IMG/VR virus record: IMGVR_UViG_3300012007_000007
Location: 99,434 to 163,433 of that record
Strand: one strand, 5' to 3'
Length of the DNA stretch: 64,000 nt
Origin: a virus
Taxonomy: Duplodnaviria; Heunggongvirae; Uroviricota; Caudoviricetes
A model generated the notes under the pieces. The model had not been told where the DNA came from, made no database searches, and saw only the letters and a program-made list of their open reading frames with translations. Positions 9,913-64,000 of the stretch are shown piece by piece. The number at the start of each line of letters is the position of its first letter. Positions within the stretch are counted from its first letter, which is position 1. A program made the position numbers and the translations under genes.

Positions 9913-9986
9913 GAATCACGGAAAATTTTCTTAATTTTCCAAAACTATCACATAGAAGGACTATCAAACGGAAAGGAGACCCGACG

Positions 9987-24530: not shown

Positions 24531-24568
24531 GGGGTATGGGCGTGAACAGTAACAAGATGGAGGACATC

Positions 24569-26396: not shown

Positions 26397-26440
26397 TCCT
26401 TGGAATTCCCGGGAAACCGGGGCTGCCCATCTCGAATCCT

Positions 26441-26469
26441 GTTGACGGAGTTTTCAATTTTTATATTTT
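26441..26469 (+). promoter_or_regulatory. possible sigma70-like promoter upstream of the sigma-factor gene (TTGACG-16/17-TATTTT)
   Basis: good -35, weak -10 inside an AT-rich gap. Confidence 0.3.
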
Positions 26470-26557
26470 ATTTTTTGATTTTTCAAACAAACGGACAACT
26501 GACAACAATACAATAAGCCCTCCCGGGTACGGGAGGCGAGAACGGAGGAAATGGACC

Positions 26558-43708: not shown

Positions 43709-44670
43709 TATGCGGCAATCCTGGAGAATGCGAGGTCGAACGCGGGAGTGCTGGTCTTCTCGTAGCCACGGTCGACCATGTCCACGATATTGTTGAGGGC
43801 CATGCGGCTGCGACCGGCGATGTTGCCACAGAGAACGGAGCGTGGCTTGTTGGCAGTGTTCCGCGTGTCGTGCTGGTAGGTTCCCTGGATTGCGTTGTAC
43901 AGGTTCCAGGCAGTCATCTTCTCGGAATTGCCGTGGTCGGCGGACTCGAAGCGGTTGACCATTCCGGTGAGCAGGTTGACAAAGTGAGTACTCGGCTCCT
44001 GCGGGTCGTCATCGGAAGCCTTGTATGTCAGGCAACGGGCAATACCCTCGCGGACGAAGTCCATGTCGATTACATTGTCGGCAAGCCGGCTATAGATTTC
44101 GGAAGTCTTCTTGAACACGCCGTCGCAGATTCGCATCGTCTCGCCGAGGATGCGGAGGCGGCTTTCGGCCATGGAATCGTGGCGCACACGGAAAAGGCTG
44201 GCCTGGTCAGCATGGCTGAGCGCGGGTGCAATCTGGTTCTCGCACCAGAAACGGTACGGGGTGATGAGGATGGCGCAACCGCGTGTCCCGTCGTGGGAAT
44301 TGACCACCGAGATGTACCTACCCACGTGGTCGTCGCCACCGCCTACGACCATGTCGTCACCGATTGCAATCTGGGCGAACACGCCGGCACCGTTTCCCCA
44401 GCTGCCCACGTTGCGGAACTCGATATCGGCAACGTTGGCAATGTCGGCAATCACCTTGAAAGCGTCGCGGTTCTGTATTGGCCGGTAAGCCCTTGTGAAC
44501 GTATGCTCGGAAATGATTGTCCCGTCGTCGCTACGGACGGGGGCGAACATCTTGGTGCCGTGGAATTCCCCGTCGGCTCCCATGAAGGACACGGGTCTCA
44601 TCTCGGTGTCGAAGTCGAGGCGGTTGGCGCGGAGCGCGTCCATTACGGATTCATAGGCTGTATTGGGCAT
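43708..44670 (-). CDS. conserved phage/plasmid-type protein of unknown function (320 aa)
   Basis: long, well-formed ORF; AAAGGAACAATCACC upstream; no motif recognised with confidence. Confidence 0.55.
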   Translation of the reverse strand: MPNTAYESVMDALRANRLDFDTEMRPVSFMGADGEFHGTKMFAPVRSDDGTIISEHTFTRAYRPIQNRDAFKVIADIANVADIEFRNVGSWGNGAGVFAQIAIGDDMVVGGGDDHVGRYISVVNSHDGTRGCAILITPYRFWCENQIAPALSHADQASLFRVRHDSMAESRLRILGETMRICDGVFKKTSEIYSRLADNVIDMDFVREGIARCLTYKASDDDPQEPSTHFVNLLTGMVNRFESADHGNSEKMTAWNLYNAIQGTYQHDTRNTANKPRSVLCGNIAGRSRMALNNIVDMVDRGYEKTSTPAFDLAFSRIAA

Positions 44671-47622: not shown

Positions 47623-47907
47623 CTATTTCTTGTATATCCGTCGCATCACCAGCAGCCCCGTCGTCAGTATCGTCGCTACCGTGTAGTTGAAGTACAGCGG
47701 CCACTGCCATTCCCCGGTCACGCAGTTGGTGTACAGGACGAAAGCGCAGCTTCCGAGGTTACCTACGTAGGCCAGCGCGAAGAACCCGTACGATAGCCCG
47801 GTATCCTTCTTCTTCCACGCCTTGCGGACCTGAGGGGCCAGGTTGAATGCGAATGCCACCGCACCCGCACCTCCCAGAAGCCAGAACAGAATCCCTACCG
47901 CGTCCAT
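47623..47907 (-). CDS. PQ-loop / SemiSWEET-like small membrane protein (94 aa)
   Basis: 3 TM helices; PQVRKAWKKKDTGLS motif. Confidence 0.4.
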   Translation of the reverse strand: MDAVGILFWLLGGAGAVAFAFNLAPQVRKAWKKKDTGLSYGFFALAYVGNLGSCAFVLYTNCVTGEWQWPLYFNYTVATILTTGLLVMRRIYKK

Positions 47908-49154
47908 CAGCCCGCCTTGATTTCCCCCACGAGTTTATCGAACCACTCCCGCGTCATCTGCCGCCTGTCCTTGCGATGGCGGTACACGGCCAGCCGGAGC
48001 TTTCTGAGCGTATGTCCAAACTCCTTGCCCTGCTTCACGCCGGCATCGAGCAACGCCCTCGTCATGTCCTTCATTGTGGGCCACTCGGTCGCGTGCTCCC
48101 GCAGCTTTATCTCGTCCGTCCGAGAAATTACCAGGTAGCCCTGTCTCGAGAACACGTAGGCCCTGAACAGTTCCCATCGGTCGTCGGTAACCAGGTCGAC
48201 AAGGTCTACAAGGTCGAGCGTACCGGCGAGGTACTTCTTGAATCTTTCGGTAATATACTCGACGTTCCTCGCGTCCTCCCTGGTGCACTTCAGGGCCTGC
48301 ATCGAGTACTTGTCCGGGAGTATCAGCGGGAACAGGTATTCGGGCTTCCACTGCACGTCACTACCCAATGTCGCGCACGCCGTAGCCAATCTTGCAATGC
48401 ACTGTCTGGCAAAGTCCCAGTCGATATTCAGGCCAGTTCCCTTCCCGATGTCCCATGACGCCATCCAGCCGAGCATCGCGGCGACCTGCTGCACTCCGTA
48501 CTCGGCACACTTGGCAAGCTCGTCGTGAATCCTTTCCTTCGATATGTTGGCCAGCCTCGGCGCAAGCACCCTCGCGGCATTCAGCGTGGCAACATCTATC
48601 TTCATGCCGAAACGAGCGGCGAACCGGCACATCCTCACTATCCTTAGCGCGTCCTCGGTGAACCGCTCGGTAGCATCGCCGACGGTCCGCAGGTGGTTCT
48701 TCGTAATTGATTCAACGCCGCCGTGGTAGTCGACCACACGGTAATCGCCGTCCAGTCCCATTGCATTGGCGGTGAAGTCCCTTCTCGCCGAATCCTCCTC
48801 AAAGCTCCCGGCCCACTCTACGCTATCCGGGTGCCGTCCGTCGGTATAGTCCCCGTCCTTCCTGAACTGGGTCACCTCGAACATCGTGTCCTTCCACTCG
48901 ACCAGCACGGTACCGTGCGCCTCGCCGTTGTTGCTCTCGCACCTGAACGCCTTCTTCAGCTCCTCGATTGGCATGTTGGTCGCTATGTCCACGTCGTGTA
49001 TGCCGGGATGCTTCTCCAGCCCCAGCTCCCAGCGGACAAGGTCCCTCACGCAGCCCCCGGCAAGGAGTGCGTCATATCCGTGTTTACCAATCTCCCTGAC
49101 TAAACCGAGCCCCTTCTCGACGAGGGGGATGGTCCTTGCGTTCAATATAATCAT
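47907..49154 (-). CDS. tRNA nucleotidyltransferase (CCA-adding enzyme / poly(A) polymerase head + HD domain) (415 aa)
   Basis: GGCVRDLV ... HDVDIAT nucleotidyltransferase motif; C-terminal HD-like LRIVRMCRFAARFG. Confidence 0.7.
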   Translation of the reverse strand: MIILNARTIPLVEKGLGLVREIGKHGYDALLAGGCVRDLVRWELGLEKHPGIHDVDIATNMPIEELKKAFRCESNNGEAHGTVLVEWKDTMFEVTQFRKDGDYTDGRHPDSVEWAGSFEEDSARRDFTANAMGLDGDYRVVDYHGGVESITKNHLRTVGDATERFTEDALRIVRMCRFAARFGMKIDVATLNAARVLAPRLANISKERIHDELAKCAEYGVQQVAAMLGWMASWDIGKGTGLNIDWDFARQCIARLATACATLGSDVQWKPEYLFPLILPDKYSMQALKCTREDARNVEYITERFKKYLAGTLDLVDLVDLVTDDRWELFRAYVFSRQGYLVISRTDEIKLREHATEWPTMKDMTRALLDAGVKQGKEFGHTLRKLRLAVYRHRKDRRQMTREWFDKLVGEIKAG

Positions 49155-52178: not shown

Positions 52179-53024
52179 TCAGGCATCCGGCACCTCCACC
52201 AAGTAAGTTCCCGCTTCCCTGTTCAGCATGAACGCGTTCCTTTCCTCGGGATAGCCGAGCGGGTTGCACACTATCCTGACGCGGTTCCCGGTAGGAGCGG
52301 TGTACACCGTGTCGAACTGGTTGTGCGTGTGGCCACACTGCCATACCGTACCGTCGTCCAGCATGTCGAGGAACCTCTGCGCGTCGAAATAGAACATCGC
52401 CGTCACCGGGTCATCCCGGTACACCTCGGCAACCCCCATCTGCAACGGGCAGAAGTGCGTCATGACTATCCGGGGCCTCGCCTTGCATACAACCTCGAGA
52501 TTCTCCAGCTCCCTCGCCAGGATGTCCGGGAACACCTGGTTCCTGTAGTTCCACAGCCTGCCGTCGAACCACCGGTTGCTCCAGAAGTCGAGCGCGTTGA
52601 ACGGCTCTCCGTTGTCTACGCGGTAGCCCAGGTCGCATACGCCCATCGTTCCTCCGAACAGCCCTGACTCATCGACCTGTCCGTCAAGGATATGGACGTT
52701 GGGGCAGCTTTCCGAGATGCTCTCCCGGACATACTCCATCCTCTCCTCGCTGGTGTCGAACAGCCTTCCCGGGAAATCCCGCTTCACCACCAGGTCATGA
52801 TTGCCGAACACCACGTAGACCTCCCGGTACTTCCGGGAGATGAACCGCAGGAACGAAAGCTGTACCCCCTCGTAGTTGGCGACATCGCCGGCTATGCATA
52901 CCGCGTCGGCAGGGGTGAAGTAGTTGCCGTACAGTGCTTCGAACATAGGGTGGAGAACGGCATCGCTGTCGCTCAGTGCCGAATAGAAATCTACATGTAT
53001 ATCCGAAATGAGGAATACTTTCAT
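52179..53024 (-). CDS. calcineurin-like metallophosphoesterase (281 aa)
   Basis: ISDIHVD, GDVANY, GNHD, GHTH motifs; GGAGG RBS 9 nt upstream. Confidence 0.7.
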   Translation of the reverse strand: MKVFLISDIHVDFYSALSDSDAVLHPMFEALYGNYFTPADAVCIAGDVANYEGVQLSFLRFISRKYREVYVVFGNHDLVVKRDFPGRLFDTSEERMEYVRESISESCPNVHILDGQVDESGLFGGTMGVCDLGYRVDNGEPFNALDFWSNRWFDGRLWNYRNQVFPDILARELENLEVVCKARPRIVMTHFCPLQMGVAEVYRDDPVTAMFYFDAQRFLDMLDDGTVWQCGHTHNQFDTVYTAPTGNRVRIVCNPLGYPEERNAFMLNREAGTYLVEVPDA

Positions 53025-53060
53025 GGATGCGCCTCCGGGAACATTGCTTGCCCCAGGATG

Positions 53061-53076
53061 CAAATATAGCATTTTT
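53061..53076 (-). promoter_or_regulatory. class-III motif
   Basis: AAAAATGCTATATTTG ~40 nt upstream of ATG 53024. Confidence 0.45.
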
Positions 53077-54852: not shown

Positions 54853-54946
54853 TTGTTACTCCGATGTATTGAAGTTGATAGATTTCATTTTTCAGCAGCA
54901 CGTTGGGTTAACATACCCAAACAATATCTATTCCGGATGCGTGTAG

Positions 54947-55029
54947 CGGAAGGCGAGGGACTCGAACCCCCAAGCGTTTTACCGCGGCGGATTTCAAGTC
55001 CGCTGACTTACCAGTTAGCCTAGCCTTCC
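54947..55029 (-). tRNA. tRNA-Ser (anticodon UGA), long variable arm
   Basis: hand-folded cloverleaf; acceptor GGAAGGC/GCCTTCC; anticodon loop CTTGAAA; T-loop GGTTCGAGTCC. Confidence 0.65.
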
Positions 55030-55036
55030 TGTTTCC

Positions 55037-55225
55037 CTAGTAGTGGGCGTGCGAAGAGAGAAGTTCAGCCTTCTCCCTCTCCATGCGCTCCCTCTGCCGG
55101 GCAAGCTTCTTGATGTCTATTCCGCAGGACTTGGCCATGCTCCTGGCCTTCTTCTGCTGCTTGGCCCAGCGGGCCTGCTTCTGCTCCTCGGTTTCCTCCG
55201 GGAGCTCTTCCCTGTGCTTCTTCAT
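55037..55225 (-). CDS. small Lys/Glu-rich protein (62 aa)
   Basis: ORF track. Confidence 0.4.
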   Translation of the reverse strand: MKKHREELPEETEEQKQARWAKQQKKARSMAKSCGIDIKKLARQRERMEREKAELLSSHAHY

Positions 55226-55233
55226 ATGTCCCC

Positions 55234-55701
55234 CTAGTCGTTCACCCCGACGACCACAATCTCGTCTTCGGTAAAATACTCGTTAAGTTTGTCCCTGTTG
55301 GCCTGCATAGTGTTCCACATGCGCTCGACCACGTCAATAGGAACCTTGCGCTCCCTGCCTTCCATTCTCCGCATGGCGACCTCGGGCGGAATGTCGAACC
55401 AGTAGGCCCTGGACATTGAGCCGGCCGGGCAAAGGCCCAGGTAGGTCCTCCAGTCCCTCACGTGGATATTGGTGGCGTCGCACACCACGTCGCCGCGCAG
55501 CATGCCCTCCGATACCCTAGAACGGAATATGGCGAATACCTTGGAATCCAGCTCCGGGTAGAGGTATTCCTCCGTACCGGTCAGTTCCTTCCGGATTCCA
55601 TCGGACGACACTACGGTAGCCCCGGTAGATTCCGCGAGCTTCCTCCCGTACGTAGACTTGCCGCACCCGGGAATGCCTATGAGAAGATGCAGAGTATTCA
55701 T
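55234..55701 (-). CDS. polynucleotide 5'-kinase (T4 Pnk kinase-domain-like P-loop kinase) (155 aa)
   Basis: GIPGCGKST Walker A; RKVPIDVVERMWNTM closely resembles T4 Pnk KAVPIDVLRSMYKSM. Confidence 0.65.
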   Translation of the reverse strand: MNTLHLLIGIPGCGKSTYGRKLAESTGATVVSSDGIRKELTGTEEYLYPELDSKVFAIFRSRVSEGMLRGDVVCDATNIHVRDWRTYLGLCPAGSMSRAYWFDIPPEVAMRRMEGRERKVPIDVVERMWNTMQANRDKLNEYFTEDEIVVVGVND

Positions 55702-55719
55702 CTGATTGTTCCTTTTTAG

Positions 55720-55792
55720 TAGTCCTACCCGGATTCGAACCGGAGTTACCGGAATGAGAATCCGGCGTCCTGGGCCTCTAGACGATAGGACC
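55720..55792 (-). tRNA. tRNA-Glu (anticodon CUC)
   Basis: hand-folded; strong similarity to bacterial tRNA-Glu backbone; loop TTCTCAT. Confidence 0.6.
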
Positions 55793-55807
55793 GTGTGTTA
55801 AATTTAG

Positions 55808-55881
55808 CTCCGGTGGACAGACTCGAACTGCCGAATCTCCTGATTACAAATCAGGCGCTCTACCAACTGAGCTACACCGGA
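55808..55881 (-). tRNA. tRNA-Thr (anticodon UGU)
   Basis: hand-folded; loop TTTGTAA; T-loop TTCGAGT. Confidence 0.6.
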
Positions 55882-55887
55882 ATGGAA

Positions 55888-55961
55888 TCGGGGTAGCCGG
55901 ATTCGAACCGACGACATCCTGCTCCCAAAGCAGACGCTCTACCAGGCTGAGCTACACCCCG
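55888..55961 (-). tRNA. tRNA-Pro (anticodon UGG)
   Basis: hand-folded; loop TTTGGGA. Confidence 0.6.
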
Positions 55962-55967
55962 GGAACC

Positions 55968-56228
55968 CTAGTCTTCTTCGACTGGTTCCGTCAGCTTGGT
56001 AGCGATTACCTTCGCGTAGTCGGCCACCGTGCGGATACGTTCGAGCTCGGAATCGAGAATCTCAATCTCGAACTCGTCTTCCATCGCCATCACGATTTCC
56101 ACGATGTCGAGAGAGTCCGCGCCGAGGTCGGCAGCGATTTCGGAATCGTCGTCGATGTCGGAAACGTCAAGTTCCAGCTTGGCGGAAATTACGTTCTTCA
56201 CGCGTCCGAGAAGTTCATTGCTTGTCAT
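55968..56228 (-). CDS. acyl carrier protein (86 aa)
   Basis: GADSLDIVEIVMAMEDEF phosphopantetheine-attachment motif; AGGAGA RBS. Confidence 0.65.
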   Translation of the reverse strand: MTSNELLGRVKNVISAKLELDVSDIDDDSEIAADLGADSLDIVEIVMAMEDEFEIEILDSELERIRTVADYAKVIATKLTEPVEED

Positions 56229-56244
56229 ATACTCTCCTTGTAAA

Positions 56245-56541
56245 TCACTTGACTTCTTCGACTTTCTGCGGTCCGGCCAGGCGGTGCATGTCCGCATACA
56301 GTCTTTCCCGGTATAGTCCGAGGTCCTTCAATGTCTTTTCCAGTTCGTCGAACCTGCATTCGACGACACGGTCTCCGGATTCGATGCGGGCCTTCTCCTT
56401 ATCCATGTCGTACCGTATCCATGTTACGGCCAGGTCCTTCGGGTTGACGTACTTGGTCGTCGTAACGTCGTACGAGTGCATGTTTTGGAGGTAACCTTCG
56501 ATGAACCGGAATTTCCAAAGAGCAAAGTTTGTCAAGTCCAT
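56245..56541 (-). CDS. hypothetical protein (98 aa)
   Basis: ORF track. Confidence 0.5.
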   Translation of the reverse strand: MDLTNFALWKFRFIEGYLQNMHSYDVTTTKYVNPKDLAVTWIRYDMDKEKARIESGDRVVECRFDELEKTLKDLGLYRERLYADMHRLAGPQKVEEVK

Positions 56542-56562
56542 TGTTCATTATCCCCAAATTGC

Positions 56563-56651
56563 CAGTTTATGTAGAAGAGGGAGCAGGATTCGAACCTGCG
56601 AGGGCCCGTGAGGGCCCCACCGGCTTAGCAAGCCGGCGCCTTTAGCCTCTC
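56563..56651 (-). tRNA. tRNA-Ser (anticodon GCU), long variable arm
   Basis: hand-folded; loop TTGCTAA; 89 nt. Confidence 0.6.
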
Positions 56652-56670
56652 GGCCACCCCTCCGATGAAA

Positions 56671-57450
56671 TTAGTTCAGCGACAGGTCGGGAACTACCCT
56701 TTCCACGGAGCGGCTGTCGTTGAACTCGCTGCCACGATAGCGGTGAGTGTCGTACTTCGGGTCCTGCCCTATGATGCCGTAAGTCATGGAATCGGCCATG
56801 CCGGATGTCTTGCACACGCTGAACAGCGCGTCGCTCATGAACGGGTACCGCTTCAGCTCGTTGAGGAGACCGTCGAGTATGAAGTCGGCGAACCTGGTGT
56901 AAGCGCCGCTGTAGCACAGCAGACCCTTGTTCAGCCCGACCAGGAACAGCTTCATCTCGGAATGGTGGGCGAGGTACTCGTAAACTCCCTCCGTAATCTG
57001 CGGATAGGTCGGGGAATACATGTCGTCGAGCACCACTACACCGTCCGGCTGCAGTACCTTCGACGCGATGTCGAGGTCGCACTTCACCCCTTCCAGGGAA
57101 TGGGCCCCGTCGATGTGGATGAACTGCATGCACTTTCCGTATTCGCGGGTGAACGGGGTGTAGCATGAAAGGTTGAGGTATCCCTTCACGTGCTCCCCGT
57201 CCAGCGTGGTATGCGAAAGCACGTTCTCCCTGGTGGTCTGGTAGTGTCCGGCGTCGCATTCGACGTAGTGGAACGTGTCGGAAGTGCTGCTCGCTATGAT
57301 GACGGCCGTCTTCCCGTCCCACGTCCCTATCTCCATCGTGTTCGCCGGCTCGATGAAGCGTAGAAAACAGTCCATCAGGACCATGGCCTCGTAGTTGTTG
57401 AAGCCCTCTATGTCCGCGACAGTGTACATGTTGAATATATCGTTCTTCAT
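56671..57450 (-). CDS. class I SAM-dependent methyltransferase (TylF/MycF-like fold) (259 aa)
   Basis: EIGTWDGKTAVIIA (motif I-like), IHIDGAHSLEG, DGVVVLDDM. Confidence 0.5.
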   Translation of the reverse strand: MKNDIFNMYTVADIEGFNNYEAMVLMDCFLRFIEPANTMEIGTWDGKTAVIIASSTSDTFHYVECDAGHYQTTRENVLSHTTLDGEHVKGYLNLSCYTPFTREYGKCMQFIHIDGAHSLEGVKCDLDIASKVLQPDGVVVLDDMYSPTYPQITEGVYEYLAHHSEMKLFLVGLNKGLLCYSGAYTRFADFILDGLLNELKRYPFMSDALFSVCKTSGMADSMTYGIIGQDPKYDTHRYRGSEFNDSRSVERVVPDLSLN

Positions 57451-57484
57451 CGGGAATCTCCGGGAGATTGGTTGTTTTTGCTAG

Positions 57485-57557
57485 TATCCCCACCAAGACT
57501 CGAACTTGAATCGGCGGTTTAGGAAACCGTGGCTCTATCCTGTTGAGCTATGGGGAC
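57485..57557 (-). tRNA. tRNA-Arg (anticodon CCU)
   Basis: hand-folded; loop TTCCTAA. Confidence 0.55.
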
Positions 57558-57582
57558 TCATACTCGTACTTACGGAAGTGGA

Positions 57583-57666
57583 GGGACTCGAACCCCCAAG
57601 CCGGTAAAGGCTCGCGGTTTTCGAAACCGCTCCGCCACCACTTGCGGGACACTTCCTGTATAGGGT
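57583..57666 (-). tRNA. tRNA-Ser (anticodon CGA), long variable arm
   Basis: hand-folded; perfect acceptor GGAAGTG/CACTTCC; loop TTCGAAA. Confidence 0.6.
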
Positions 57667-57673
57667 GGAAGAC

Positions 57674-57747
57674 AGGGCTTGAACCTGCAACAGCCGGCTC
57701 CACAAGCCGGGGCTCTACCAGTTGAGCTACTTCCACCGTAAATGGCC
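57674..57747 (-). tRNA. tRNA-His (anticodon GUG) with genomically encoded G-1
   Basis: hand-folded; loop TTGTGGA; extra 5' G pairing with C73. Confidence 0.6.
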
Positions 57748-57864
57748 ATGCGGCCCGGGAGCGCCGGGATATCCCGCGGCGTTTTCCCGGTTGCCCCGGG
57801 AGCATACCGCCGGCATGCTGAGCATCCCGGGTATTGGCCGGGACTCACTTACATCACCGCATAG

Positions 57865-57939
57865 TGCCCCTGGATGGGCTCGAACCACCGACCACTCCCA
57901 CCAATGGCGGGAGATGCTCTACCGCTGAGCTACAAGGAC
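57865..57939 (-). tRNA. tRNA-like gene with non-canonical anticodon arm (8-bp stem / 3-nt loop, or 9-nt loop)
   Basis: acceptor, D-arm and T-arm (GGTGG-TTCGAGC-CCATC) fold; anticodon region CTCCCGCCATTGGTGGGAG does not give a 7-nt loop. Confidence 0.4.
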
Positions 57940-58184
57940 ATGGACCGGGGTACTAGCTAGCTCTCCCCCGGCGATTGAAGCAGCCGGCTGCCATGCAGGC
58001 TGACGGGCCCACATGGCCCGCCTTCACGATTTCCCTCCAATCAATTGGAAACCGGGAACGGTAGGCGGGCGCAGTCCGGTATCCCGGATGGCTGGCCCCT
58101 GGGCTGTTCCATGCCCGCCATGACTTTGTGCCTCATGGTGGCGACCATCGCATTTCCCGCGGTCGACGGGGCATGCGGTAGTAG

Positions 58185-58260
58185 TGGACGGTCTGGGGCT
58201 CGAACCCAGGGCCTAGTGGTTATGAGTCACCTGCTCGCATACCAACCGAGCTCACCGTCC
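58185..58260 (-). tRNA. tRNA-Met (anticodon CAU; elongator, or Ile2 lysidine type)
   Basis: hand-folded; perfect acceptor GGACGGT/ACCGTCC; loop CTCATAA. Confidence 0.55.
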
Positions 58261-58266
58261 GTAAAC

Positions 58267-59025
58267 TTATGCTTCAATTAACACATCATCTGATTCAATA
58301 TATCGATAGAACGTGCAACCTAGCAGCTCTTTGATGATACGTGTTCGTTCGATATCCTTGTCCTGACATACGCCATTAGTGTAATGGTGCCTGTGTTCAT
58401 CGTATTCAACGACTATATTACGTTCTTTATCATAAGCATCCAATGAATAACGGCCAACTCGAATCTCACCACCATTCATTGCATGCTGTAAATTCCAGCC
58501 ACGCTCAGCATTGAGCCTATCGAAATATTCACACGCTTTGATGCTGTATCGCGGACCAGCATTGGTTGCGTTTATATATTGCCGCGTCGATTCGCTAATT
58601 TTCTTCTTGGTTTCATCAGAATGGGTTCTTCCAGTGAATGTTCCCTTCAACTCTCCGCTAGCATATCGGTTTTCTAATGTAGTCACATACTGTTTGACCC
58701 TGGCATCAGTGAATTGTGTCAATCCCTTGTTCCATGCACTTCCAATCAGCTTTCGCTTTCCATCAACTACAACGAATCTAATCGCCTTATCGGGGTGAAC
58801 ACTCTTCTTATGTGCATCGAGAAGCCGTCTGGTTTCCATTACGCAATCACAGAATGGACACTTCCAGTCATTAGACCTGCGCCGACGAGTTGCTGGAGGA
58901 TGTCCTGTCAGTTTACCGTTCTTGTTTGATTGCTTGCCAATATTGCGATATTGGCAAGCTCTCGAGCAGAACCTCCCAGACCCGTACGAACCATCATGCT
59001 CAGCACCACATTCTTCGCATATCAT
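58267..59025 (-). CDS. putative freestanding homing endonuclease (N-terminal zinc fingers + NUMOD3-like motif) (252 aa)
   Basis: CEECG...CSRAC and CPFCDC...H..H fingers; FTGRTHSDETKKKISESTRQY NUMOD3-like; embedded in the tRNA cluster like T4 segB. Confidence 0.45.
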   Translation of the reverse strand: MICEECGAEHDGSYGSGRFCSRACQYRNIGKQSNKNGKLTGHPPATRRRRSNDWKCPFCDCVMETRRLLDAHKKSVHPDKAIRFVVVDGKRKLIGSAWNKGLTQFTDARVKQYVTTLENRYASGELKGTFTGRTHSDETKKKISESTRQYINATNAGPRYSIKACEYFDRLNAERGWNLQHAMNGGEIRVGRYSLDAYDKERNIVVEYDEHRHHYTNGVCQDKDIERTRIIKELLGCTFYRYIESDDVLIEA

Positions 59026-59042
59026 ATCTTTTATCCTTTTAG

Positions 59043-59119
59043 TGCCACGGGGTGGATTCGAACCACCATCTCACCTGGTCGCGAACCAAGGATGCGCTCT
59101 GCCGTTAAACTACCGCGAC
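59043..59119 (-). tRNA. tRNA-like gene with insertion between D- and anticodon stems
   Basis: T-arm GGTGG-TTCGAAT-CCACC and acceptor fold (2 G-U pairs); the standard anticodon stem does not pair. Confidence 0.35.
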
Positions 59120-59120
59120 A

Positions 59121-59774
59121 TGGTGGGAACAGCGGTATCCTAGCTTCTAGAAAGCGTCACCGCCCGGTTCCCTCTCGGTGTCCTTGCAGGGACTGTACTC
59201 ATTCCGCCGATGCGGAAACCATCCGGCTATCTGCCAACCGGCTAGGCCACTGTAACCAGTGTGGCCAACGGGCCCTTAATGCTCCACGTTACCAGGACGT
59301 GGCCGCACTCTGTCTTGTTTTACGTCGTTTCGACGGGCGCACCCGACGGCCGGACTTGCGAGAGCATACCTCGCTCGTCCATATTTGGCTTCCCCGCAAT
59401 TTACACCTAGGCTAATCACGGTTACCCAAAATCATAATCTCGCTGGCGCATTACCGGGCTTCCCCGAACGGTACCCCGGCCATTATTCCGCCACTTATGC
59501 TACGGCACAGCCCCATAGGATATACCTGCGGGCATCTTCCATCATCTCCGTCGAGACTTTTCAAACACACTGGGCCTATTAGCGGGCCCTTACCGCTTTA
59601 CGCTCGCGTGGCCGGTACGCGGCTGCACGCATGCAACCTTTCCCTGAACGGGATTGGCATTATGGCACTTGGCCAAGCTCATCAAATGCATGACCCCAGA
59701 TTCCTGTCGGGCCAAGAAACTTACCGCACGAATATCCAGGAATCTCAGTCGGGCGGCAGCAATCCAATGTCCTA
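59121..59774 (-). ncRNA. candidate structured ncRNA (GC-rich, ORF-free, ~650 nt) with RNase P RNA P3/P4-like motifs
   Basis: minus-strand hairpin GCGAG-guaugcu-CUCGC followed by AAGUCCGGCC; later ACAGAGUGCGGCC, CCUGGUAACG; near the 3' end GGGAACCGGGCGG complementary to GUCCGG; ends ...CCCACCA. Confidence 0.3.
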
Positions 59775-59847
59775 CTCCGGCTGCCGGACTCGAACCAGCG
59801 ACCCCGTCATTACGAATGACGCGCTCTACCAGCTGAGCTAAGCCGGA
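59775..59847 (-). tRNA. tRNA-Thr (anticodon CGU)
   Basis: hand-folded; perfect acceptor TCCGGCT/AGCCGGA; loop TTCGTAA. Confidence 0.6.
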
Positions 59848-60135
59848 AAAATGGTGGAACGCCCCGGTCTCGATTGTTCACAGGAAGTACCAGAGCCTTG
59901 ATAATGCCGAGCGGCCTTGCGTCCACCAAATGGTTTCCCGGCGGGGCGTAATATCTTCAATGTAAAAATAGGAACGCCGTTTGCCGGGAATAAAGGGGGC
60001 ACCTCCCGGGGAGTAATAATTTAACCCGTAAGAAGGAACTCCGTATGGGAGGTGCTAATGTCTTGGCGCGGGCCCAACCGGAGGAGAAAGGGCCCGCGCC
60101 GTCGCCGCGGCATGGAGGGACCGCGGACTTGTTCG

Positions 60136-60208
60136 TAGCGGGAGGCGGATTCGAACCGCCGACCTCGAGGTTATGGGCCTCGCGAGCTACCAACTGCTCC
60201 ATCCCGCG
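60136..60208 (-). tRNA. initiator tRNA-fMet (anticodon CAU)
   Basis: C1 x U72 mismatch, A11:U24, GGAGCAGTTGGTAGCTCG closely matches bacterial tRNA-fMet; loop CCCATAA. Confidence 0.6.
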
Positions 60209-60604: not shown

Positions 60605-61565
60605 ATGTCACATGTCCACTGAATGGGGCACGGTTCATCCCGGTAATGTTCACTTTTAACTACCCTGAAGTGTTGCCATTCCTCTGAATGGGAACGGGTC
60701 CACTAACATATTGCCCGTATCGGGGGCCGGACTGGTGTTGCTACCTCACAAAATGGAGGTAGGACCACCTATTTAATGTTGCTGGCTCAATCTTGTGCTG
60801 GTGTAGTCACCCCTCAAAATGGGGGTGGGTCCACCCTGGGCTTTCTCGCCGCTGGCGCCCTTGTCGGTGTAGCCACCCCTCAAAATGGGGGTGGGTCCAC
60901 CAGAGAGAGTAATTGCCGTATGAATTTGTACGGTGTAGTCACCCCTCAAAATGGGGGTGGGTCCACCAACATCGGTACGCTGAACGTAACGAGCGAGGGG
61001 TGTAGTCACCCCTCAAAATGGGGGTGGGTCCACCATCCTACAATAACGGGGCAATTACCGTCAAGGTGTAGTCACCCCTCAAAATGGGGGTGGGTCCACC
61101 GGTTATCCAGCCATTTATCCATGCCCTTCTGGTGTAGTCACCCCTCAAAATGGGGGTGGGTCCACCCGCAGGTGAAATAGTATTCTTTTCCTGGTTGGTG
61201 TAGTCACCCCTCAAAATGGGGGTGGGTCCACCCGACACAGCAGCCGTTGTAGGCGCCGTCATGGTGTAGTCACCCCTCAAAATGGGGGTGGGTCCACCAA
61301 GCCGGGGGTCATTAAAAACCTTACTAGAGGTGTAGTCACCCCTCAAAATGGGGGTGGGTCCACCTATGACTTCCTTGGTATAGTCTTCGATGCCGGTGTA
61401 GTCACCCCTCAAAATGGGGGTGGGTCCACCACTTACACGAGAAGATGCGTTCAAGCTCCTGGTGTAGTCACCCCTCAAAATGGGGGTGGGTCCACCCGGG
61501 GGCGAGTACAATTACTATGGCCTCTAGGTGTAGTCACCCCTCAAAATGGGGGTGGGTCCACCTTG
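60605..61565 (-). CRISPR. CRISPR array: 12 intact 36-bp repeats (GGTGTAGTCACCCCTCAAAATGGGGGTGGGTCCACC as read on the plus strand) + ~3 decayed repeats at the low-coordinate end; 11 spacers of 30-31 bp
   Basis: exact 66-bp periodicity from 60803 to 61565; repeat 2 has a T-to-C variant; decayed units at ~60611, 60677, 60743 keep the 66-bp phase; internal hairpin CACCCC-TCAAAAT-GGGGGTG in the repeat. Confidence 0.9.
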
Positions 61566-61575: not shown

Positions 61576-64000
61576 TTACTTGCACTTCAATGCGTTAACG
61601 AACTCTGTGTCCTTAAATTTTACCCTATTCCTGATACAAAAGGCTGCATTGACATCGGCATTTTGAAGCTTACCATGCAAGGAACATTCCGGATTTCCAC
61701 ATACAAACTTTCGTCCGTCACGGAAATTCACCTTCTTAGTTAGGCACTGTTCCTGGGTCAGTTTTACATCCTTCTTTGCACATTTACCATATCCACATGC
61801 ATGACATGTTTGAGATGTCTTTTTAGCGGATACTTCCTTGTACAGGGTTCCTCGACGAGTTACGATACGTTCGACATCATGCTTTAATAGGGCAAGGTGC
61901 ATAGCGTTCTTGGTATAATGGTCGGACCATTCGCTGTCGCGTCGACGCAAACCTTCCTTAGTCGGTTCACAGTACAATGTAACGATTGAGCCGTTAATAG
62001 AGATTTCCTTTGGAGCATGCCAATCAGTCGTATCCTTGCAATTCGACATGATTTCCTGCTTCGTTACCGTTCGACCAAAGTCAATGACAGCCGTATTGCT
62101 GTTCTTGGAAGCAGTTAACTTGTAACCTTCATTAGGACCCATGTGCCATGTCTTAGAAACCGTTGTATACAGCGTTGTGAACTTCCCGGTCTTCTCCAAT
62201 TCATTGAGGTTAAGATTTTCCATGGAAACAATATCGGCCTTGGAGAATGTCTTGGTGTTGAGCAACTCGCATGACAGGATGAAGGTGCTTTCCGAGCGAA
62301 TCTTTTTGGTCAGTTTAGCGTATTCATCATTCAGTTCAGCCGCAATCTTGGACCGCTTTGCGAAGATTTCCGTCATGGTATCGTGCTTGCGGTCCCACCT
62401 GGCCTGCTCATAGAAATAATGTCGACGATTCGCAATGAGCTGACGGTGGAACTTGCGCCACAGCTTGGTGTGACCGATAATGGCAATCTGCCGGTCCGTA
62501 TAGAAAGGAGTGCCGTCGGCATTGGTCCTGTGGATAAGCCAGGCGAACATGGGGGCACATGGGTCGCTTACCGGAATCCAGTCGTGCTTCGCATCAGTCG
62601 GGGAGCCATCACGCATAGCAATAGACAGCATGGCGATAAAGTTGTAATCACCACTCTCGTATTCGTCTACGAGACGCTTCAGGTCATCCCGGGTCGACAC
62701 AGTTGATGTCGTGGTGAACAGTTTCGTCTCCGAATGGTCCTGATAGTAGGCGTGCACTGCTTCGTGCCAGTCTACCATGTCTGGCCCGATGTCCTTAGCC
62801 TTGATTGTAGTAATGAGGCCAGCGACTGCGATGCCGGCGTCAATGCCTACCGTCTTGGCCAGGTCAATATCCTGGATATGTTCCTTGTCGAGCGAAGGTA
62901 CCTTGCGAGGTACATCGTATGGTATGTTCAGTGTCATCGGAGGAATCCCCGGATGGTGCATATCAGTGCACACCATTTTAGACACATTCACGTCACCATT
63001 GAACACGATAGTGCCTTTCGGACACACTTTCGATAGGGCGAACAGATTTTCGGGGTAATAGTTGGTACCCTTATCCGAATGAGCCCTGATTAGAATGTCA
63101 ACAGTTCCTCCCGGTAAACCGCGGGCAGTCACTTTCCAGTCGAAGTAGGTACTGTCAAGCGTGGAGCCACGGTCGACCACAAGTTCAGGGAGGGTGATGG
63201 GAATGACTTTGTTCGGGTTTGGTACGTTCTCGATTACTGCCTTCTTGAATTCGGAATAGGCATCGAGATAGATTTCGAGCGCCTTGTCAGCTAGCTTTTC
63301 GAATTCGTCAAACGTAATATCGAGTGCTTCACCTTCAACCTTAGTTTTTAGTGTTTTCTTGTTGTCCTTCCCGAACGCCTTCTTCAATTCCGGCATCTCG
63401 CCATTGATTGCTTTCAGTGTCTGCGGACCGCATACAGTCAATACTTTAACTATCTTTCCGTAGTTAAAAACATCCAGGCAACTTTTCTTGGCTACAGACC
63501 GTACAGCAAACGCCCACTTCGTATCGGCATGACCGTTGACTGCCTTGGACAGCATGGAAACTCGCTGAGTATAGCCCTTCATCATGCCGTCGACCTTGGC
63601 ACAGACACATTCATTCCAGTATGTGGCAGGTGTTTCTACCGTGATTCCGGTCTCTTCGGAAATAGCATTGTCAATCATGGAGATGAATTCGGCGCGGTCA
63701 CCGAGTATAGGGGAATTCGGGTTGAACAATTCCCTGGTCGGGCGTGCATTGGGACCGTTTCCGATAGAAGCATTCACCGTATATTCAGTGGTACCGCGAA
63801 TAATAGTATATTTTTTCTCGGCATTCAGGTATTCTTCGGGAATGCCCTCACAGTAGATATCGAACACGGTCATATTCACTGTGCCGTCGTTTGTAATGAC
63901 GGTGAGCTGGTCGAAGAGTCTTTCCTTGATGCGTTCGAATGCAGCCTTGATTGCCTTGTTTGCACCGATAACACAGGATGCCAGACGCTTGGCTCCCCGT
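61576..64000 (-). CDS. cas12: type V CRISPR effector, Cas12/TnpB-like RuvC nuclease (at least 807 aa; 5' end beyond window)
   Basis: RuvC-I TVGIDAGIAVAG, RuvC-II IVSMENLNLNEL, zinc finger CHACGYGKC...CGNPEC, RuvC-III NADVNAAFCIRNR (D-x-NAA-x-N-I class); reading frame stays open to the window edge (no stop upstream of the GTG at 63879); the array starts 10 bp after the stop. Confidence 0.8.
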   Translation of the reverse strand, partial: RGAKRLASCVIGANKAIKAAFERIKERLFDQLTVITNDGTVNMTVFDIYCEGIPEEYLNAEKKYTIIRGTTEYTVNASIGNGPNARPTRELFNPNSPILGDRAEFISMIDNAISEETGITVETPATYWNECVCAKVDGMMKGYTQRVSMLSKAVNGHADTKWAFAVRSVAKKSCLDVFNYGKIVKVLTVCGPQTLKAINGEMPELKKAFGKDNKKTLKTKVEGEALDITFDEFEKLADKALEIYLDAYSEFKKAVIENVPNPNKVIPITLPELVVDRGSTLDSTYFDWKVTARGLPGGTVDILIRAHSDKGTNYYPENLFALSKVCPKGTIVFNGDVNVSKMVCTDMHHPGIPPMTLNIPYDVPRKVPSLDKEHIQDIDLAKTVGIDAGIAVAGLITTIKAKDIGPDMVDWHEAVHAYYQDHSETKLFTTTSTVSTRDDLKRLVDEYESGDYNFIAMLSIAMRDGSPTDAKHDWIPVSDPCAPMFAWLIHRTNADGTPFYTDRQIAIIGHTKLWRKFHRQLIANRRHYFYEQARWDRKHDTMTEIFAKRSKIAAELNDEYAKLTKKIRSESTFILSCELLNTKTFSKADIVSMENLNLNELEKTGKFTTLYTTVSKTWHMGPNEGYKLTASKNSNTAVIDFGRTVTKQEIMSNCKDTTDWHAPKEISINGSIVTLYCEPTKEGLRRRDSEWSDHYTKNAMHLALLKHDVERIVTRRGTLYKEVSAKKTSQTCHACGYGKCAKKDVKLTQEQCLTKKVNFRDGRKFVCGNPECSLHGKLQNADVNAAFCIRNRVKFKDTEFVNALKCK

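What the first reader, a model, noticed from the sequence alone, without database searches (positions are those of the whole stretch)
57865..59119. Two tRNA-shaped genes whose anticodon arms cannot form a canonical 5-bp/7-nt stem-loop
Both keep good acceptor, D and T arms, so they are likely processed by RNase P and RNase Z. One (57865) replaces the anticodon loop with an extended hairpin CTCCCGCC-ATT-GGTGGGAG. The other (59043) has a 4-5-nt insertion. They may be pseudo-tRNAs, decoys for host anticodon nucleases, frameshift or suppressor tRNAs, or processing punctuation signals.
Basis: seen in the sequence. Interest (0 to 1): 0.55.

Follow-up and report, generated by a model that had tools for sequence, protein, structure and literature searches.

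The report
Conserved phage tRNA look-alikes, odd anticodon arms
Two genes in a gut phage-like element's tRNA cluster fold like tRNAs but have over-long anticodon arms that related elements also keep, so they are probably selected tRNA look-alikes that do not read codons, not decaying genes.

Summary
Both features are real, on the minus strand: t1 at 57865-57939 and t2 at 59043-59119. ARAGORN and Rfam call both tRNA, but they are the two lowest-scoring of 13, and the deficit lies in the anticodon arm.

- **t1:** 6-bp stem plus loop CCAUUGG, which can close to 8 bp plus AUU.
- **t2:** it does have a canonical 5-bp/7-nt tip (CUUGG-UUCGCGA-CCAGG). That tip sits on 2-3 extra pairs and a 2-nt bulge, giving a 23-nt arm.

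Independent assemblies rule out sequencing error. t2 has four orthologs. Its 8-pair arm is 95% paired, and four pairs show double compensatory changes. Between the window and one close relative, the acceptor/T half changed at 2/34 sites and the D/anticodon half at 20/47, about the neutral rate (45%), yet every stem still pairs. t1 has one ortholog, 95% identical including the hairpin, next to a spacer only ~70% identical.

Neither looks like a decaying pseudogene, a suppressor or a frameshift tRNA. My best reading (0.4) is non-decoding tRNA look-alikes processed by RNase P, RNase Z and CCA-adding enzyme. t2 would be a processing signal directly 3' of a conserved ~0.5-0.65 kb structured non-coding RNA. 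t1's sequence-level constraint is unexplained. No expression data exist. This is a new variant of a known kind.

The parts
57865..57939 (-). t1: tRNA-like gene with a normal acceptor stem (two G.U pairs), D arm (GCUC/GAGC, G18G19), T arm (GGUGG-UUCGAGC-CCAUC) and A73. No CCA is encoded.
   Evidence: ARAGORN, Rfam 43.3 bits and the ARAGORN drawing. The ortholog L044:1353-1427 is 71/75 identical.
57895..57913 (-). t1 anticodon hairpin CUCCCGCC-AUU-GGUGGGAG. It reads as 6 bp plus loop CCAUUGG, closable to 8 bp plus a triloop, with one extra U 5' of it.
   Evidence: Fold of -13.6 kcal/mol, z = -4.4. There is 1 change in 20 nt against L044, and it preserves the pair (C-G to U.G). P = 1e-4 at the neutral rate.
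59043..59119 (-). t2: tRNA-like gene with acceptor GUCGCGG/CCGUGGC (G4.U69), D arm GUUU/GAGC, T arm GGUGG-UUCGAAU-CCACC and A73. No CCA is encoded.
   Evidence: ARAGORN and Rfam 39.2 bits. Orthologs are L044:567-645, L043:515-591, L052:199-275 and L037:2227-2304.
59072..59094 (-). t2 extended anticodon arm CAUCCUUGG-UUCGCGA-CCAGGUG: 7 pairs with a 2-nt bulge on the 5' strand and a 7-nt loop.
   Evidence: RNAalifold and explicit pair counts on 5 orthologs give 8 pairs, 94.9% paired, with 4 pairs changed on both sides.
59120..59773 (-). S3: a conserved, structured non-coding region lying between tRNA-Thr(cgu) and t2. It ends in the hairpin GGGAAC...GUUCCC followed by ACCAUG, directly 5' of G1 of t2.
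   Evidence: It is 90-95% identical to L043, L044 and L052, whereas 4-fold sites are 55% identical. The predicted fold has 9 compensated pairs. There is no Rfam hit and no GenBank phage or PLSDB match.
58267..59025 (-). Putative free-standing homing-endonuclease-like ORF (zinc fingers, NUMOD3, weak DUF559/Vsr-like C-terminus) inserted between t2 and tRNA-Met.
   Evidence: Pfam matches are weak. Homologs sit directly 5' of the same tRNA-Met variant in other arrays. The ORF is absent from this slot in L043, L044 and L052.
58185..58260 (-). tRNA-Met(CAU) variant (G8, long D loop) that travels with the endonuclease-like ORF.
   Evidence: Relatives without the ORF carry a different tRNA-Met.
54946..60208 (-). 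The tRNA array that holds t1 and t2: 13 tRNA-type genes, all on the minus strand, interleaved with small ORFs and GC-rich spacers.
   Evidence: A promoter-like site lies at 60470-60442 on the minus strand.

Best explanation
t1 and t2 are tRNA-derived genes that no longer work as ordinary decoders but are kept by selection as tRNA look-alikes.

**Proposed processing (inferred).** They are transcribed with the tRNA array. Because the acceptor/T minihelix and the D/T elbow are intact, RNase P would cut them at the 5' end and RNase Z or exonucleases at the 3' end. CCA would then be added, possibly by the element's own nucleotidyltransferase.

**t2.** Only the acceptor/T half is constrained in sequence. 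The D and anticodon arms need only stay helical. This is what is expected of a cis-acting processing signal. RNase P cleavage at G1 of t2 would define the 3' end (hairpin plus ACCA) of the conserved structured RNA S3 lying directly upstream. It would also separate S3 from what follows: the endonuclease-like ORF and tRNA-Met here, or other inserts in relatives.

**t1.** The whole sequence is constrained, including the closed hairpin. It must therefore do something sequence-specific beyond punctuation. That role is unknown.

**Shown here:** the anatomy, the conservation and the covariation.

**Inferred:** transcription, processing, CCA addition and the absence of decoding.
For: - **tRNA shape with an aberrant arm.** Shown.
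- **t2 arm is maintained.** The extended arm is 94.9% paired across 5 orthologs, and 4 of 8 pairs changed on both sides. Of 500 shuffles, none reached the observed percentage of paired cells or the observed covariation score, and 9 reached the observed count of pairs changed on both sides.
- **Two halves of t2 evolve differently.** Between the window and L044, 4-fold sites differ by 45%. The top half of t2 changed at 2/34 sites and the bottom half at 20/47 (Fisher p = 2.7e-4). All 11 bottom-half pairs of the window gene have paired counterparts in L044, with P = 4e-4 in a neutral simulation.
- **The t2 loop is not conserved.** ARAGORN assigns the orthologs Ala-cgc, Ala-tgc, Ser-gga, none and none. 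C33 replaces U33 in L043, L044 and L052.
- **S3 abuts t2.** It is 90-95% conserved, structured, and separated from G1 of t2 only by the last nucleotides of ACCAUG.
- **Shared processing context.** No gene encodes CCA and most, including t1 and t2, share a CTA trailer. A tRNA nucleotidyltransferase, a polynucleotide-kinase-like protein and a metallophosphoesterase are encoded within about 10 kb.
- **t1 is constrained.** It has 4/75 changes against L044, while the adjacent spacer aligns at only ~70%.
- **Precedent.** In MALAT1/mascRNA, RNase P cuts at a non-decoding tRNA-like structure to form the 3' end of a long ncRNA (PMC8457004).
Against: - There are no expression, processing or aminoacylation data of any kind.
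- The sample is small: 5 t2 sequences, two of them nearly identical, and 2 t1 sequences.
- Canonical tRNAs also flank the spacers and could do the same job. Punctuation alone therefore does not explain why a non-decoder is kept.
- Punctuation does not explain the sequence-level constraint on t1's hairpin.
- Three of four t2 lineages keep G35-C36 (anticodon CGC or UGC, both Ala), a purine at 37, G4.U69 and A73. This could hint at a real identity.
- Two t2 copies look damaged. L037 has a broken D stem and an A6.C67 mismatch. L052 has U55 changed to C.
- The top half of t2 is more sequence-conserved than shape-reading enzymes should require.
Confidence: 0.4

Rival explanations
1. Anti-defence tRNA mimics. 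Once processed, t1 and/or t2 would bind or titrate a host tRNA-directed defence nuclease, or another tRNA-binding protein. Their altered anticodon arms would make them poor substrates or tight decoys.
For: - Phage tRNA clusters act as counter-defence loci, and phage tRNAs evade anticodon nucleases through loop changes (PMC10264068).
- Homing endonucleases associate with such clusters (PMC13096335, PMC2330249), as they do here.
- t1 is constrained along its whole length, including the hairpin, which fits specific protein recognition.
- The D/anticodon half of t2 turns over fast while keeping its shape, as might happen in an arms race.
- Polynucleotide-kinase-like, phosphoesterase and CCA-enzyme genes lie nearby.
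Against: - No defence system or host is identified.
- The t2 bottom half changes at about the neutral rate, not above it, so diversifying selection is not required.
- The loops do not mimic any one tRNA consistently across orthologs.
- Known cases such as T5 are still canonical decoders.
Confidence: 0.2
2. They are working decoders with unusual arms. t2 would be an Ala tRNA (CGC/UGC). t1 would read AAU with anticodon AUU, possibly carrying a non-cognate amino acid.
For: - ARAGORN assigns anticodons.
- The window t2 has a perfect 5-bp/7-nt tip with U33 and a purine at 37.
- NGC, a purine at 37, A73 and G4.U69 recur in 4 of 5 t2 copies.
- tRNAs with A34, an AUU anticodon and no U33 do decode in E. 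coli (tRNAProN, PMC10404621).
- tRNASec works with a 6-bp anticodon stem (my own knowledge).
- t1 is strongly conserved.
Against: - The arm is 3-8 nt too long.
- In t2 orthologs the bulge sits 2-5 pairs from the loop, so the geometry of the anticodon stem-loop is not conserved.
- The anticodon loop is among the most variable parts of t2, the opposite of a decoder.
- L043, L044 and L052 have C33.
- G3.U70, the Ala determinant, is absent.
- In t1, C32/C33 can pair with G37/G38 and close the loop.
- t1 has G1:C72, not the C1:G72 of tRNAProX.
Confidence: 0.12
3. They are decaying pseudo-tRNAs, or by-products of endonuclease-driven recombination between tRNA genes, with no function of their own.
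For: - They are the lowest-scoring tRNAs in the array.
- The L037 copy has lost its D stem and is missed by ARAGORN and Rfam.
- L052 has U55 changed to C.
- L043 and L052 carry a normal tRNA-Arg(ACG) where t1 sits.
- The anticodon arm of the L037 copy resembles t1's (CCCGCCAU), suggesting chimeras.
- The endonuclease SegB cuts inside tRNA genes and drives rearrangement (PMC13096335).
- Aberrant anticodon arms recur in IMG/VR tRNA-like genes.
Against: - A neutral sequence would not keep 11 of 11 stem pairs at 45% divergence (P = 4e-4).
- It would not hold the top half of t2 to 2/34 changes (P = 6e-7).
- It would not hold t1 to 4/75 changes beside a ~70%-identical spacer.
Confidence: 0.1
4. The constraint acts on DNA. 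The conserved half of t2 would be the recognition or homing site, or the immunity polymorphism, of the adjacent endonuclease, or an integration (att) site.
For: - The endonuclease-like ORF is inserted 17 nt after t2 in the window and also directly after the t2 copy in L037.
- In L052 the same junction is intact, with 14 nt between t2 and tRNA-Met.
- Homing enzymes target conserved sequence.
Against: - Compensatory changes in the RNA helices point to RNA-level selection.
- The sequence differences that track presence of the ORF lie in tRNA-Met, not in t2.
- A complete cloverleaf, including the 5' acceptor strand, is not what an att fragment looks like.
- I did not look for an integrase gene.
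Confidence: 0.08

Closest known systems
mascRNA / MALAT1 (and the NEAT1 tRNA-like element): RNase P-defined 3' ends of long ncRNAs (PMC8457004)
   Same: A cloverleaf with good acceptor and T arms and a non-decoding anticodon arm sits directly 3' of a long, conserved, structured ncRNA. The expected order of events is RNase P, RNase Z and then CCA addition.
   Different: That system is eukaryotic and nuclear and has been shown experimentally. Here the setting is a bacterial virus-like element, processing is untested, and the element lies inside an array of ordinary tRNAs.
tRNA punctuation of polycistronic transcripts, as in mitochondria and the T4 tRNA cluster with its stable species 1 and 2 RNAs (my own knowledge)
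   Same: tRNA-shaped units separate other RNAs in a single transcript and are cut out by tRNA-processing enzymes. Non-tRNA stable RNAs lie between the tRNAs.
   Different: In those systems the punctuating units are working tRNAs. Here two of them appear to have given up the canonical anticodon arm.
Phage T5 tRNAs with anticodon-loop changes that escape host anticodon nucleases (PMC10264068)
   Same: These are phage-encoded tRNAs in clusters whose anticodon region departs from the host's.
   Different: T5 tRNAs keep the 5-bp/7-nt arm and decode. t1 and t2 have arms 3-8 nt longer, and the t2 loop is not conserved.
tRNAProX family (tRNAProA, tRNAProT, tRNAProN) of Streptomyces and Kitasatospora (PMC10404621)
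   Same: They are non-canonical bacterial tRNAs lacking U33 and carrying A34. tRNAProN has the anticodon AUU, as ARAGORN reads t1.
   Different: tRNAProX is defined by C1:G72, A33, an A15:A48 pair and a neighbouring ProRSx gene. t1 has G1:C72, C33 and G15/C48, no ProRS gene is seen next to it, and its stem is 6 bp.
tRNASec and allo-tRNAs (my own knowledge)
   Same: They have anticodon stems longer than 5 bp (6 bp) in functional tRNAs.
   Different: They also have 8/5 or 9/4 acceptor/T stems, long D stems and long variable arms. t1 and t2 have 7/5 stems, 3-4-bp D stems and 4-5-nt variable regions.
T4/T6 SegB homing endonuclease in the tRNA gene cluster (PMC2330249, PMC13096335)
   Same: A free-standing endonuclease-like gene lies between tRNA genes. 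It shows presence/absence polymorphism and carries flanking tRNA variants with it.
   Different: SegB is a GIY-YIG enzyme. The ORF here has zinc fingers, NUMOD3 and a weak DUF559-like match, and its activity is untested.

Membership tests
Canonical elongator tRNA (Rfam RF00005) | Score at or above the family gathering threshold (29 bits). | tested here: met
   t1 scores 43.3 bits and t2 scores 39.2 bits. They are the two lowest of 13.
Canonical elongator tRNA (Rfam RF00005) | 7-bp acceptor stem, D arm with G18G19, and 5-bp T stem with a UUCRANY loop. | tested here: met
   The same features are present in the L044 and L043 orthologs.
Canonical elongator tRNA (Rfam RF00005) | A 17-nt anticodon arm (5 bp plus a 7-nt loop with U33 and a purine at 37), with one nucleotide (26) between the D and anticodon stems. 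| tested here: not met
   t1 has a 20-nt arm, a 6-bp stem, C33 and 2 linker nucleotides. t2 has a 23-nt arm, and its orthologs have 22-25 nt with C33 in three of them. Only the window t2 has a canonical tip.
Canonical elongator tRNA (Rfam RF00005) | The anticodon is conserved among orthologs. | tested here: not met
   For t2, ARAGORN gives CGC, UGC, GGA, none and none. For t1, AUU is kept, but in only 2 sequences.
Frameshift-suppressor tRNA | An 8-nt (or 9-nt) anticodon loop on a normal 5-bp stem. | tested here: not met
   Loops are 7, 4 or 3 nt on extended stems.
Nonsense-suppressor tRNA | An anticodon complementary to UAA, UAG or UGA. | tested here: not met
   The loops are CCAUUGG, UUCGCGA, UCUGCAG, ACUGCAG and AUAG. 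None offers UUA, CUA or UCA at positions 34-36.
tRNAProX mistranslating tRNAs | C1:G72, A33, A34 and an A15:A48 pair (PMC10404621). | tested here: not met
   t1 has G1:C72, C33, A34 and G15/C48.
tmRNA | A tRNA-like domain formed by the 5' and 3' ends, plus a tag reading frame. | tested here: not met
   ARAGORN finds no tmRNA in the window and there is no Rfam hit.
mascRNA-type processing element | A tRNA-like structure directly 3' of a conserved ncRNA. | tested here: met
   S3 is 90-95% conserved and structured, and it ends 2 nt before G1 of t2. This applies to t2 only.
mascRNA-type processing element | RNase P cleavage at the 5' end of the tRNA-like structure creates the mature 3' end of the ncRNA. 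| not testable with these tools
   This needs RNA 3'-end mapping or in vitro cleavage.
tRNA-Ala | A G3.U70 pair in the acceptor stem (my own knowledge of AlaRS identity). | tested here: not met
   Position 3:70 is C-G in the window and U.G in the other copies. The conserved wobble pair is G4.U69.

The most novel reading that the evidence does not exclude
S3 plus t2 would be a phage counterpart of MALAT1/mascRNA. A structured RNA of about 0.5-0.65 kb would have its tRNA-like 3' end (hairpin plus ACCA) released by RNase P at a dedicated, non-decoding tRNA look-alike. t1 would be a second, sequence-constrained tRNA mimic that engages a host tRNA-binding protein such as a defence nuclease. Together they would form a new class of tRNA-machinery-dependent non-coding RNA module in phage tRNA arrays.
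Probability: 0.2. Interest if true: 0.7.

Novelty: new variant of a known kind. Interest (0 to 1): 0.5.

Why it matters
- **Annotation.** tRNA finders label these genes 'tRNA-Asn(att)' and 'tRNA-Ala(cgc)'. Those labels would mislead codon-usage and host-prediction analyses.
- **Selection on a look-alike.** The comparative data show that a tRNA-shaped gene can stay under selection after losing the canonical anticodon arm. In t2, only the half read by processing enzymes is held fixed.
- **A testable bacterial or viral case.** If the link to the upstream conserved RNA holds, it would be an instance of tRNA-like 3'-end formation of a large ncRNA. It would also point to an uncharacterised structured RNA.
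- **Possible link to defence.** If t1 is a decoy, it connects to the current picture of phage tRNA clusters as counter-defence loci.

Tried and rejected
**Searches that found nothing useful**
- Megablast and blastn of the array, of t2 and of S3+t2 against GenBank phages and PLSDB plasmids found no match. t1 gave only generic tRNA hits at 75-81% identity.
- Exact anticodon-arm and T-arm patterns had 0 hits in IMG/VR. Only one IMG/VR contig (L052) belongs to the clade.
- The methyltransferase search in IMG/VR and GTDB genomes found nothing. Its homologs lie on short or non-syntenic contigs.
- SprT-like homologs lie next to T4-like structural genes, with no tRNA array nearby.
- Rfam gave no family for any spacer.

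**Ideas rejected**
- **tracrRNA link.** The CRISPR repeat has no anti-repeat outside the array.
- **tmRNA.** None was found.
- **att site.** The cloverleaf is complete, including its 5' strand.
- **Suppressor or frameshift tRNA.** The loops do not fit.
- **Sequencing error.** Orthologs in independent assemblies show the same architecture.

**Points left open**
- t1 as an ortholog of the tRNA-Arg(ACG) occupying its slot in L043 and L052: no evident similarity by eye in the sequences; no alignment was run.
- t1 and t2 as paralogs is only suggestive. With model R1, t1 scores 40-42 bits and the best canonical tRNA 37.9. The L037 copy shares CCCGCCAU and the CCAUC T stem with t1.

**Caveat on folding**
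- RNAfold also closes canonical anticodon loops to triloops. A predicted triloop is therefore not in itself evidence of abnormality. The abnormal features are the arm length and the G-C closing pairs.
Full report
**What is there**

The window carries 13 tRNA-type genes, all on the minus strand between 54946 and 60208 (ARAGORN, Rfam). The two genes in the finding are the lowest-scoring.
- t1 is 57865-57939, at 43.3 bits.
- t2 is 59043-59119, at 39.2 bits. The gathering score is 29.

In both Rfam alignments the acceptor, D and T arms align cleanly. The excess sits in the anticodon arm: 10 nt against 6 model positions in t1, and 17 against 11 in t2.

Read on the minus strand, t1 is:
GUCCUUG UA GCUC AGCGGUA GAGC A U CUCCCGCC AUU GGUGGGAG UGGUC GGUGG UUCGAGC CCAUC CAGGGGC A.

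It folds at -13.6 kcal/mol with z = -4.4. ARAGORN's own drawing has a 6-bp stem, the loop CCAUUGG and two nucleotides between the D and anticodon stems.

t2 is:
GUCGCGG UA GUUU AACGGCA GAGC G CAUCCUUGG UUCGCGA CCAGGUG AGAU GGUGG UUCGAAU CCACC CCGUGGC A.

Its tip, CUUGG-UUCGCGA-CCAGG, is a canonical 5-bp/7-nt stem-loop with U33 and a purine at 37. What is abnormal is the base of the arm, where two more pairs (C-G, A-U) are set off by a 2-nt bulge. The arm is 23 nt instead of 17.

RNAfold also closes the loops of the window's normal tRNAs to triloops. A predicted triloop is therefore not the evidence. The evidence is arm length and, in t1, the two C-G pairs that can close the loop.

**Source and relatives**

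The window comes from a 95.8-kb wolf-gut metagenome scaffold (ENA ERZ28658117). GenBank phages and PLSDB plasmids hold nothing similar.

Searches built on neighbouring proteins gave no syntenic arrays. Relatives came from two other routes.
- **Homologs of the ORF between t2 and tRNA-Met.** led to L037 (ORF 70% identical, syntenic from the CRISPR array to tRNA-Glu), to L038-L041 and to L051.
- **DNA patterns.** The t2 T-arm/acceptor pattern and a pattern from the upstream spacer led to L043 and L044 (NCBI JAEEGL01) and to L052 (IMG/VR UViG_3300028832_000129).

L044 carries the neighbouring methyltransferase. Its protein is 92% identical, and 45% of 4-fold degenerate sites differ.

**The t2 family**

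Orthologs sit at the same place in L044 (567-645), L043 (515-591), L052 (199-275) and L037 (2227-2304). Their anticodon arms are:

| Copy | Arm | Length |
|---|---|---|
| Window | CAUCCUUGG-UUCGCGA-CCAGGUG | 23 nt |
| L044 | CACCUCUUGG-UCUGCAG-CCGGGGUG | 25 nt |
| L043 | CAUGCCUGG-ACUGCAG-CCAGCAUG | 24 nt |
| L052 | as L043, with A changed to G (U-A becomes U.G) | 24 nt |
| L037 | GCACCCGCC-AUAG-GGUAGGUGC | 22 nt |

Each arm folds into a 7-8-bp helix. Most have a 1-2-nt bulge on the 5' strand; L037 has a 1x1 mismatch instead.

RNAalifold recovers this helix. In an explicit count it has 8 pairs, 94.9% of cells are paired, and 4 pairs changed on both sides. That is more covariation than in any other helix of the molecule. 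Of 500 shuffles, none reached the observed percentage of paired cells or the observed covariation score, and 9 reached the observed count of pairs changed on both sides. Sliding the partners by 1-3 columns drops pairing to 38-52%.

The D stem also covaries: GUUU/GAGC in the window, GCAU/AUGU in L044 and GCU/AGC in L043.

The loop is not conserved. Three copies have C33, and the bulge lies 2 to 5 pairs from the loop. ARAGORN labels the copies Ala(cgc), Ala(tgc), Ser(gga), nothing and nothing.

**Rates in t2**

These figures compare the window with L044.
- The acceptor, T arm and positions 8-9 and 73 changed at 2 of 34 sites.
- The D arm, anticodon arm and variable region changed at 20 of 47 sites (Fisher p = 2.7e-4).
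- The second figure equals the neutral rate of 45% at 4-fold sites.
- All 11 bottom-half stem pairs of the window gene have paired counterparts in L044, and a neutral simulation reaches this with P = 4e-4.
- The 2/34 figure has P = 6e-7 at the neutral rate.
- tRNA-Arg(CCU) in the same pair of genomes is 97% identical.

The half read by RNase P, RNase Z, the CCA enzyme and acceptor-reading proteins is therefore strongly constrained. The other half is free in sequence but must stay helical. That is the opposite of what a decoder shows, where the anticodon loop is the most fixed part.

There are caveats. The sample is small, with two near-identical rows. The L037 copy has a broken D stem and an A6.C67 mismatch, and both ARAGORN and Rfam miss it. 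L052 has U55 changed to C.

**t1**

One ortholog was found, L044:1353-1427, with 71 of 75 positions identical. The four changes are:
- U2.G71 to C2-G71;
- C-G to U.G inside the hairpin;
- one in the variable region;
- one in the T loop.

The hairpin shows 1 change in 20 nt (P = 1e-4 at the neutral rate). The spacer just upstream aligns at only ~70% over 133 nt. t1 is thus constrained in sequence along its whole length, odd arm included. A recent transfer of this short segment cannot be fully excluded with two sequences.

In L043 and L052 the slot holds a normal tRNA-Arg(ACG). L037 has nothing there. The arm of the L037 t2 copy (CCCGCCAUAGGG) and its T stem (CCAUC) resemble t1. With model R1, built from the t2 family, t1 is the best match outside the training set, at 40-42 bits against 37.9 for the best canonical tRNA. 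A common origin or a chimera is possible but not shown.

**Surroundings that bear on function**

- **S3.** The 654 nt between tRNA-Thr(CGU) and t2 (59120-59773) are 90-95% identical to L043, L044 and L052, far above the neutral level. The region folds into a multi-helix structure with 9 compensated pairs. It has no Rfam match. It ends in the hairpin GGGAAC...GUUCCC followed by ACCAUG (ACCACG in L043), directly before G1 of t2. One pair in that hairpin covaries, GCGGU/ACCGC against GCGAU/AUCGC.
- **No encoded CCA.** None of the 13 genes encodes CCA, and most, including t1 and t2, are followed by CTA.
- **tRNA-maintenance genes.** A tRNA nucleotidyltransferase (47907-49154), a polynucleotide-kinase-like protein (55234-55701) and a metallophosphoesterase (52179-53072) are encoded nearby.
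- **A mobile ORF.** The ORF at 58267-59025 has zinc fingers, a NUMOD3 match just under threshold and a weak DUF559 match. It behaves like a mobile homing-endonuclease gene.
  - It lies between t2 and tRNA-Met in the window and in L037.
  - It is absent in L052, where t2 and tRNA-Met are 14 nt apart.
  - In L043 and L044 an unrelated conserved non-coding insert of about 340-400 nt occupies the slot.
  - Its homologs elsewhere always sit just 5' of the same unusual tRNA-Met variant.
  - This parallels T4/T6 SegB (PMC2330249, PMC13096335).

**Interpretation**

The best-supported reading is that t1 and t2 are retired tRNAs kept as tRNA look-alikes. For t2, the pattern of a fixed top half and a free but helical bottom half, the non-conserved loop and the direct abutment to a conserved structured RNA together fit a cis-acting processing signal. 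RNase P cutting at G1 would give S3 a defined 3' end with a hairpin and ACCA, and would free the downstream RNAs. The known parallel is MALAT1/mascRNA (PMC8457004). Transcription, cleavage and CCA addition are all inferred. No step has been observed.

For t1 the full-length constraint calls for a sequence-specific role that I cannot name. A protein-binding mimic or decoy is the most natural guess, given what is known of phage tRNA clusters as counter-defence loci (PMC10264068, PMC13096335).

Decoding is unlikely but not excluded. tRNAs with A34, an AUU anticodon and no U33 do work in E. coli (PMC10404621). Four of five t2 copies keep G35-C36, a purine at 37, A73 and G4.U69. Against this, G3.U70 is absent, the arm geometry varies, and t1 fails the defining features of tRNAProX.

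Simple decay is contradicted by the rate and pairing statistics. A DNA-level explanation, such as an endonuclease site, does not account for compensatory RNA pairs.

**How unusual this is**

A length-selected sample of IMG/VR tRNA-like genes sharing t1's D arm includes others with 6-8-bp anticodon stems or 9-nt loops. One pair, L010 and L018, shares a 7-bp stem and an ACGAG loop that differ by a compensatory change. Aberrant anticodon arms in phage tRNA arrays are thus a recurring, little-studied phenomenon. The specific t1/t2 family is confined to a narrow clade: 5 assemblies found here and one IMG/VR contig. I rate it a new variant of a known kind, of moderate interest. The conserved S3 RNA next to t2 may be the more novel object.

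Noticed in passing
window 59120-59773 (-); L043:1-514; L044:1-566; L052:1-197: S3 is a non-coding region of about 0.5-0.65 kb. It is 90-95% identical among relatives whose 4-fold sites are only 55% identical. Its predicted multi-helix fold has 9 compensated pairs, and it ends in a hairpin plus ACCA just before t2. It has no Rfam family and no match in GenBank phages or PLSDB. It is a candidate new structured RNA.
   Followed up: partly
window 60664-61562 and 61576-63879 (-): A CRISPR array has 12 intact 36-nt repeats (GGTGTAGTCACCCCTCAAAATGGGGGTGGGTCCACC) with 66-nt spacing, plus 2 degenerate copies. Next to it is a Cas12-type ORF with a Cas12f1-like TNB domain: 767 aa in the window and 835 aa on the full contig. 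It lies directly upstream of the tRNA array on the same strand. No anti-repeat occurs elsewhere in the window. L037 has a related array.
   Followed up: partly
window 58267-59025 (-) with 58185-58260 (-); L037, L038-L041, L051: An endonuclease-like ORF shows presence/absence polymorphism at the t2/tRNA-Met junction. It always travels with an unusual tRNA-Met variant (G8 instead of U8, long D loop). Relatives without the ORF carry a different tRNA-Met.
   Followed up: partly
L043:593-934; L044:647-1044; L037:1808-2226: A conserved non-coding element (about 250-285 nt aligned within spacers of 340-420 nt, 86-93% identical) occupies the endonuclease slot in L043 and L044. In L037 it lies upstream of t2. 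It is absent from the window and from L052. It may be a mobile non-coding element.
   Followed up: no
window 47907-49154 (-), 52179-53072 (-), 55234-55701 (-): A tRNA nucleotidyltransferase, a metallophosphoesterase and a polynucleotide-kinase-like protein are encoded in or next to the tRNA array. This looks like a tRNA maintenance or repair set. No RNA ligase appeared among the ORFs I scanned.
   Followed up: partly
window 55968-56297 (-) and 56671-57450 (-): An acyl-carrier-protein-like ORF (PP-binding) and a Methyltransf_24 methyltransferase are embedded between tRNA genes. In L036 a homolog of the methyltransferase sits beside QueC-like, CoaE and CTP-transferase-like genes.
   Followed up: no
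window 9813-11237 (+), 24374-25720 (+), 43708-44670 (-), 25865-27334 (+): The window also encodes a GmrSD-N plus HNH protein, an FtsK/SpoIIIE ATPase, a DUF932 protein and a sigma-factor-like protein. The element is not a textbook tailed-phage segment. IMG/VR lists a relative as viral, but a plasmid-like or hybrid nature is not excluded.
   Followed up: no
L051:455-530 and 671-749; L042:10762-10835: L051 has weak tRNA-like remnants upstream of the endonuclease homolog (16-19 bits with model R1). L042 has a tRNA just downstream of its homolog that ARAGORN missed.
   Followed up: no
L010:5684-5734 and L018:247-297 (IMG/VR): Two unrelated viral contigs share a tRNA-like gene with a 7-bp anticodon stem and a 5-nt loop ACGAG. 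The stems differ by a compensatory change (CCGGCUG/CAGCCGG against CCGGUUG/CAACCGG). This is another conserved non-canonical anticodon arm.
   Followed up: no
window 60470-60442 (-): This is the best sigma-70-like promoter match in the region (TTGTCA, 17 nt, TATATT, with TG). It lies between the CRISPR array and tRNA-fMet and may be the promoter of the array. The total number of promoter-like sites is not above the shuffled expectation.
   Followed up: no
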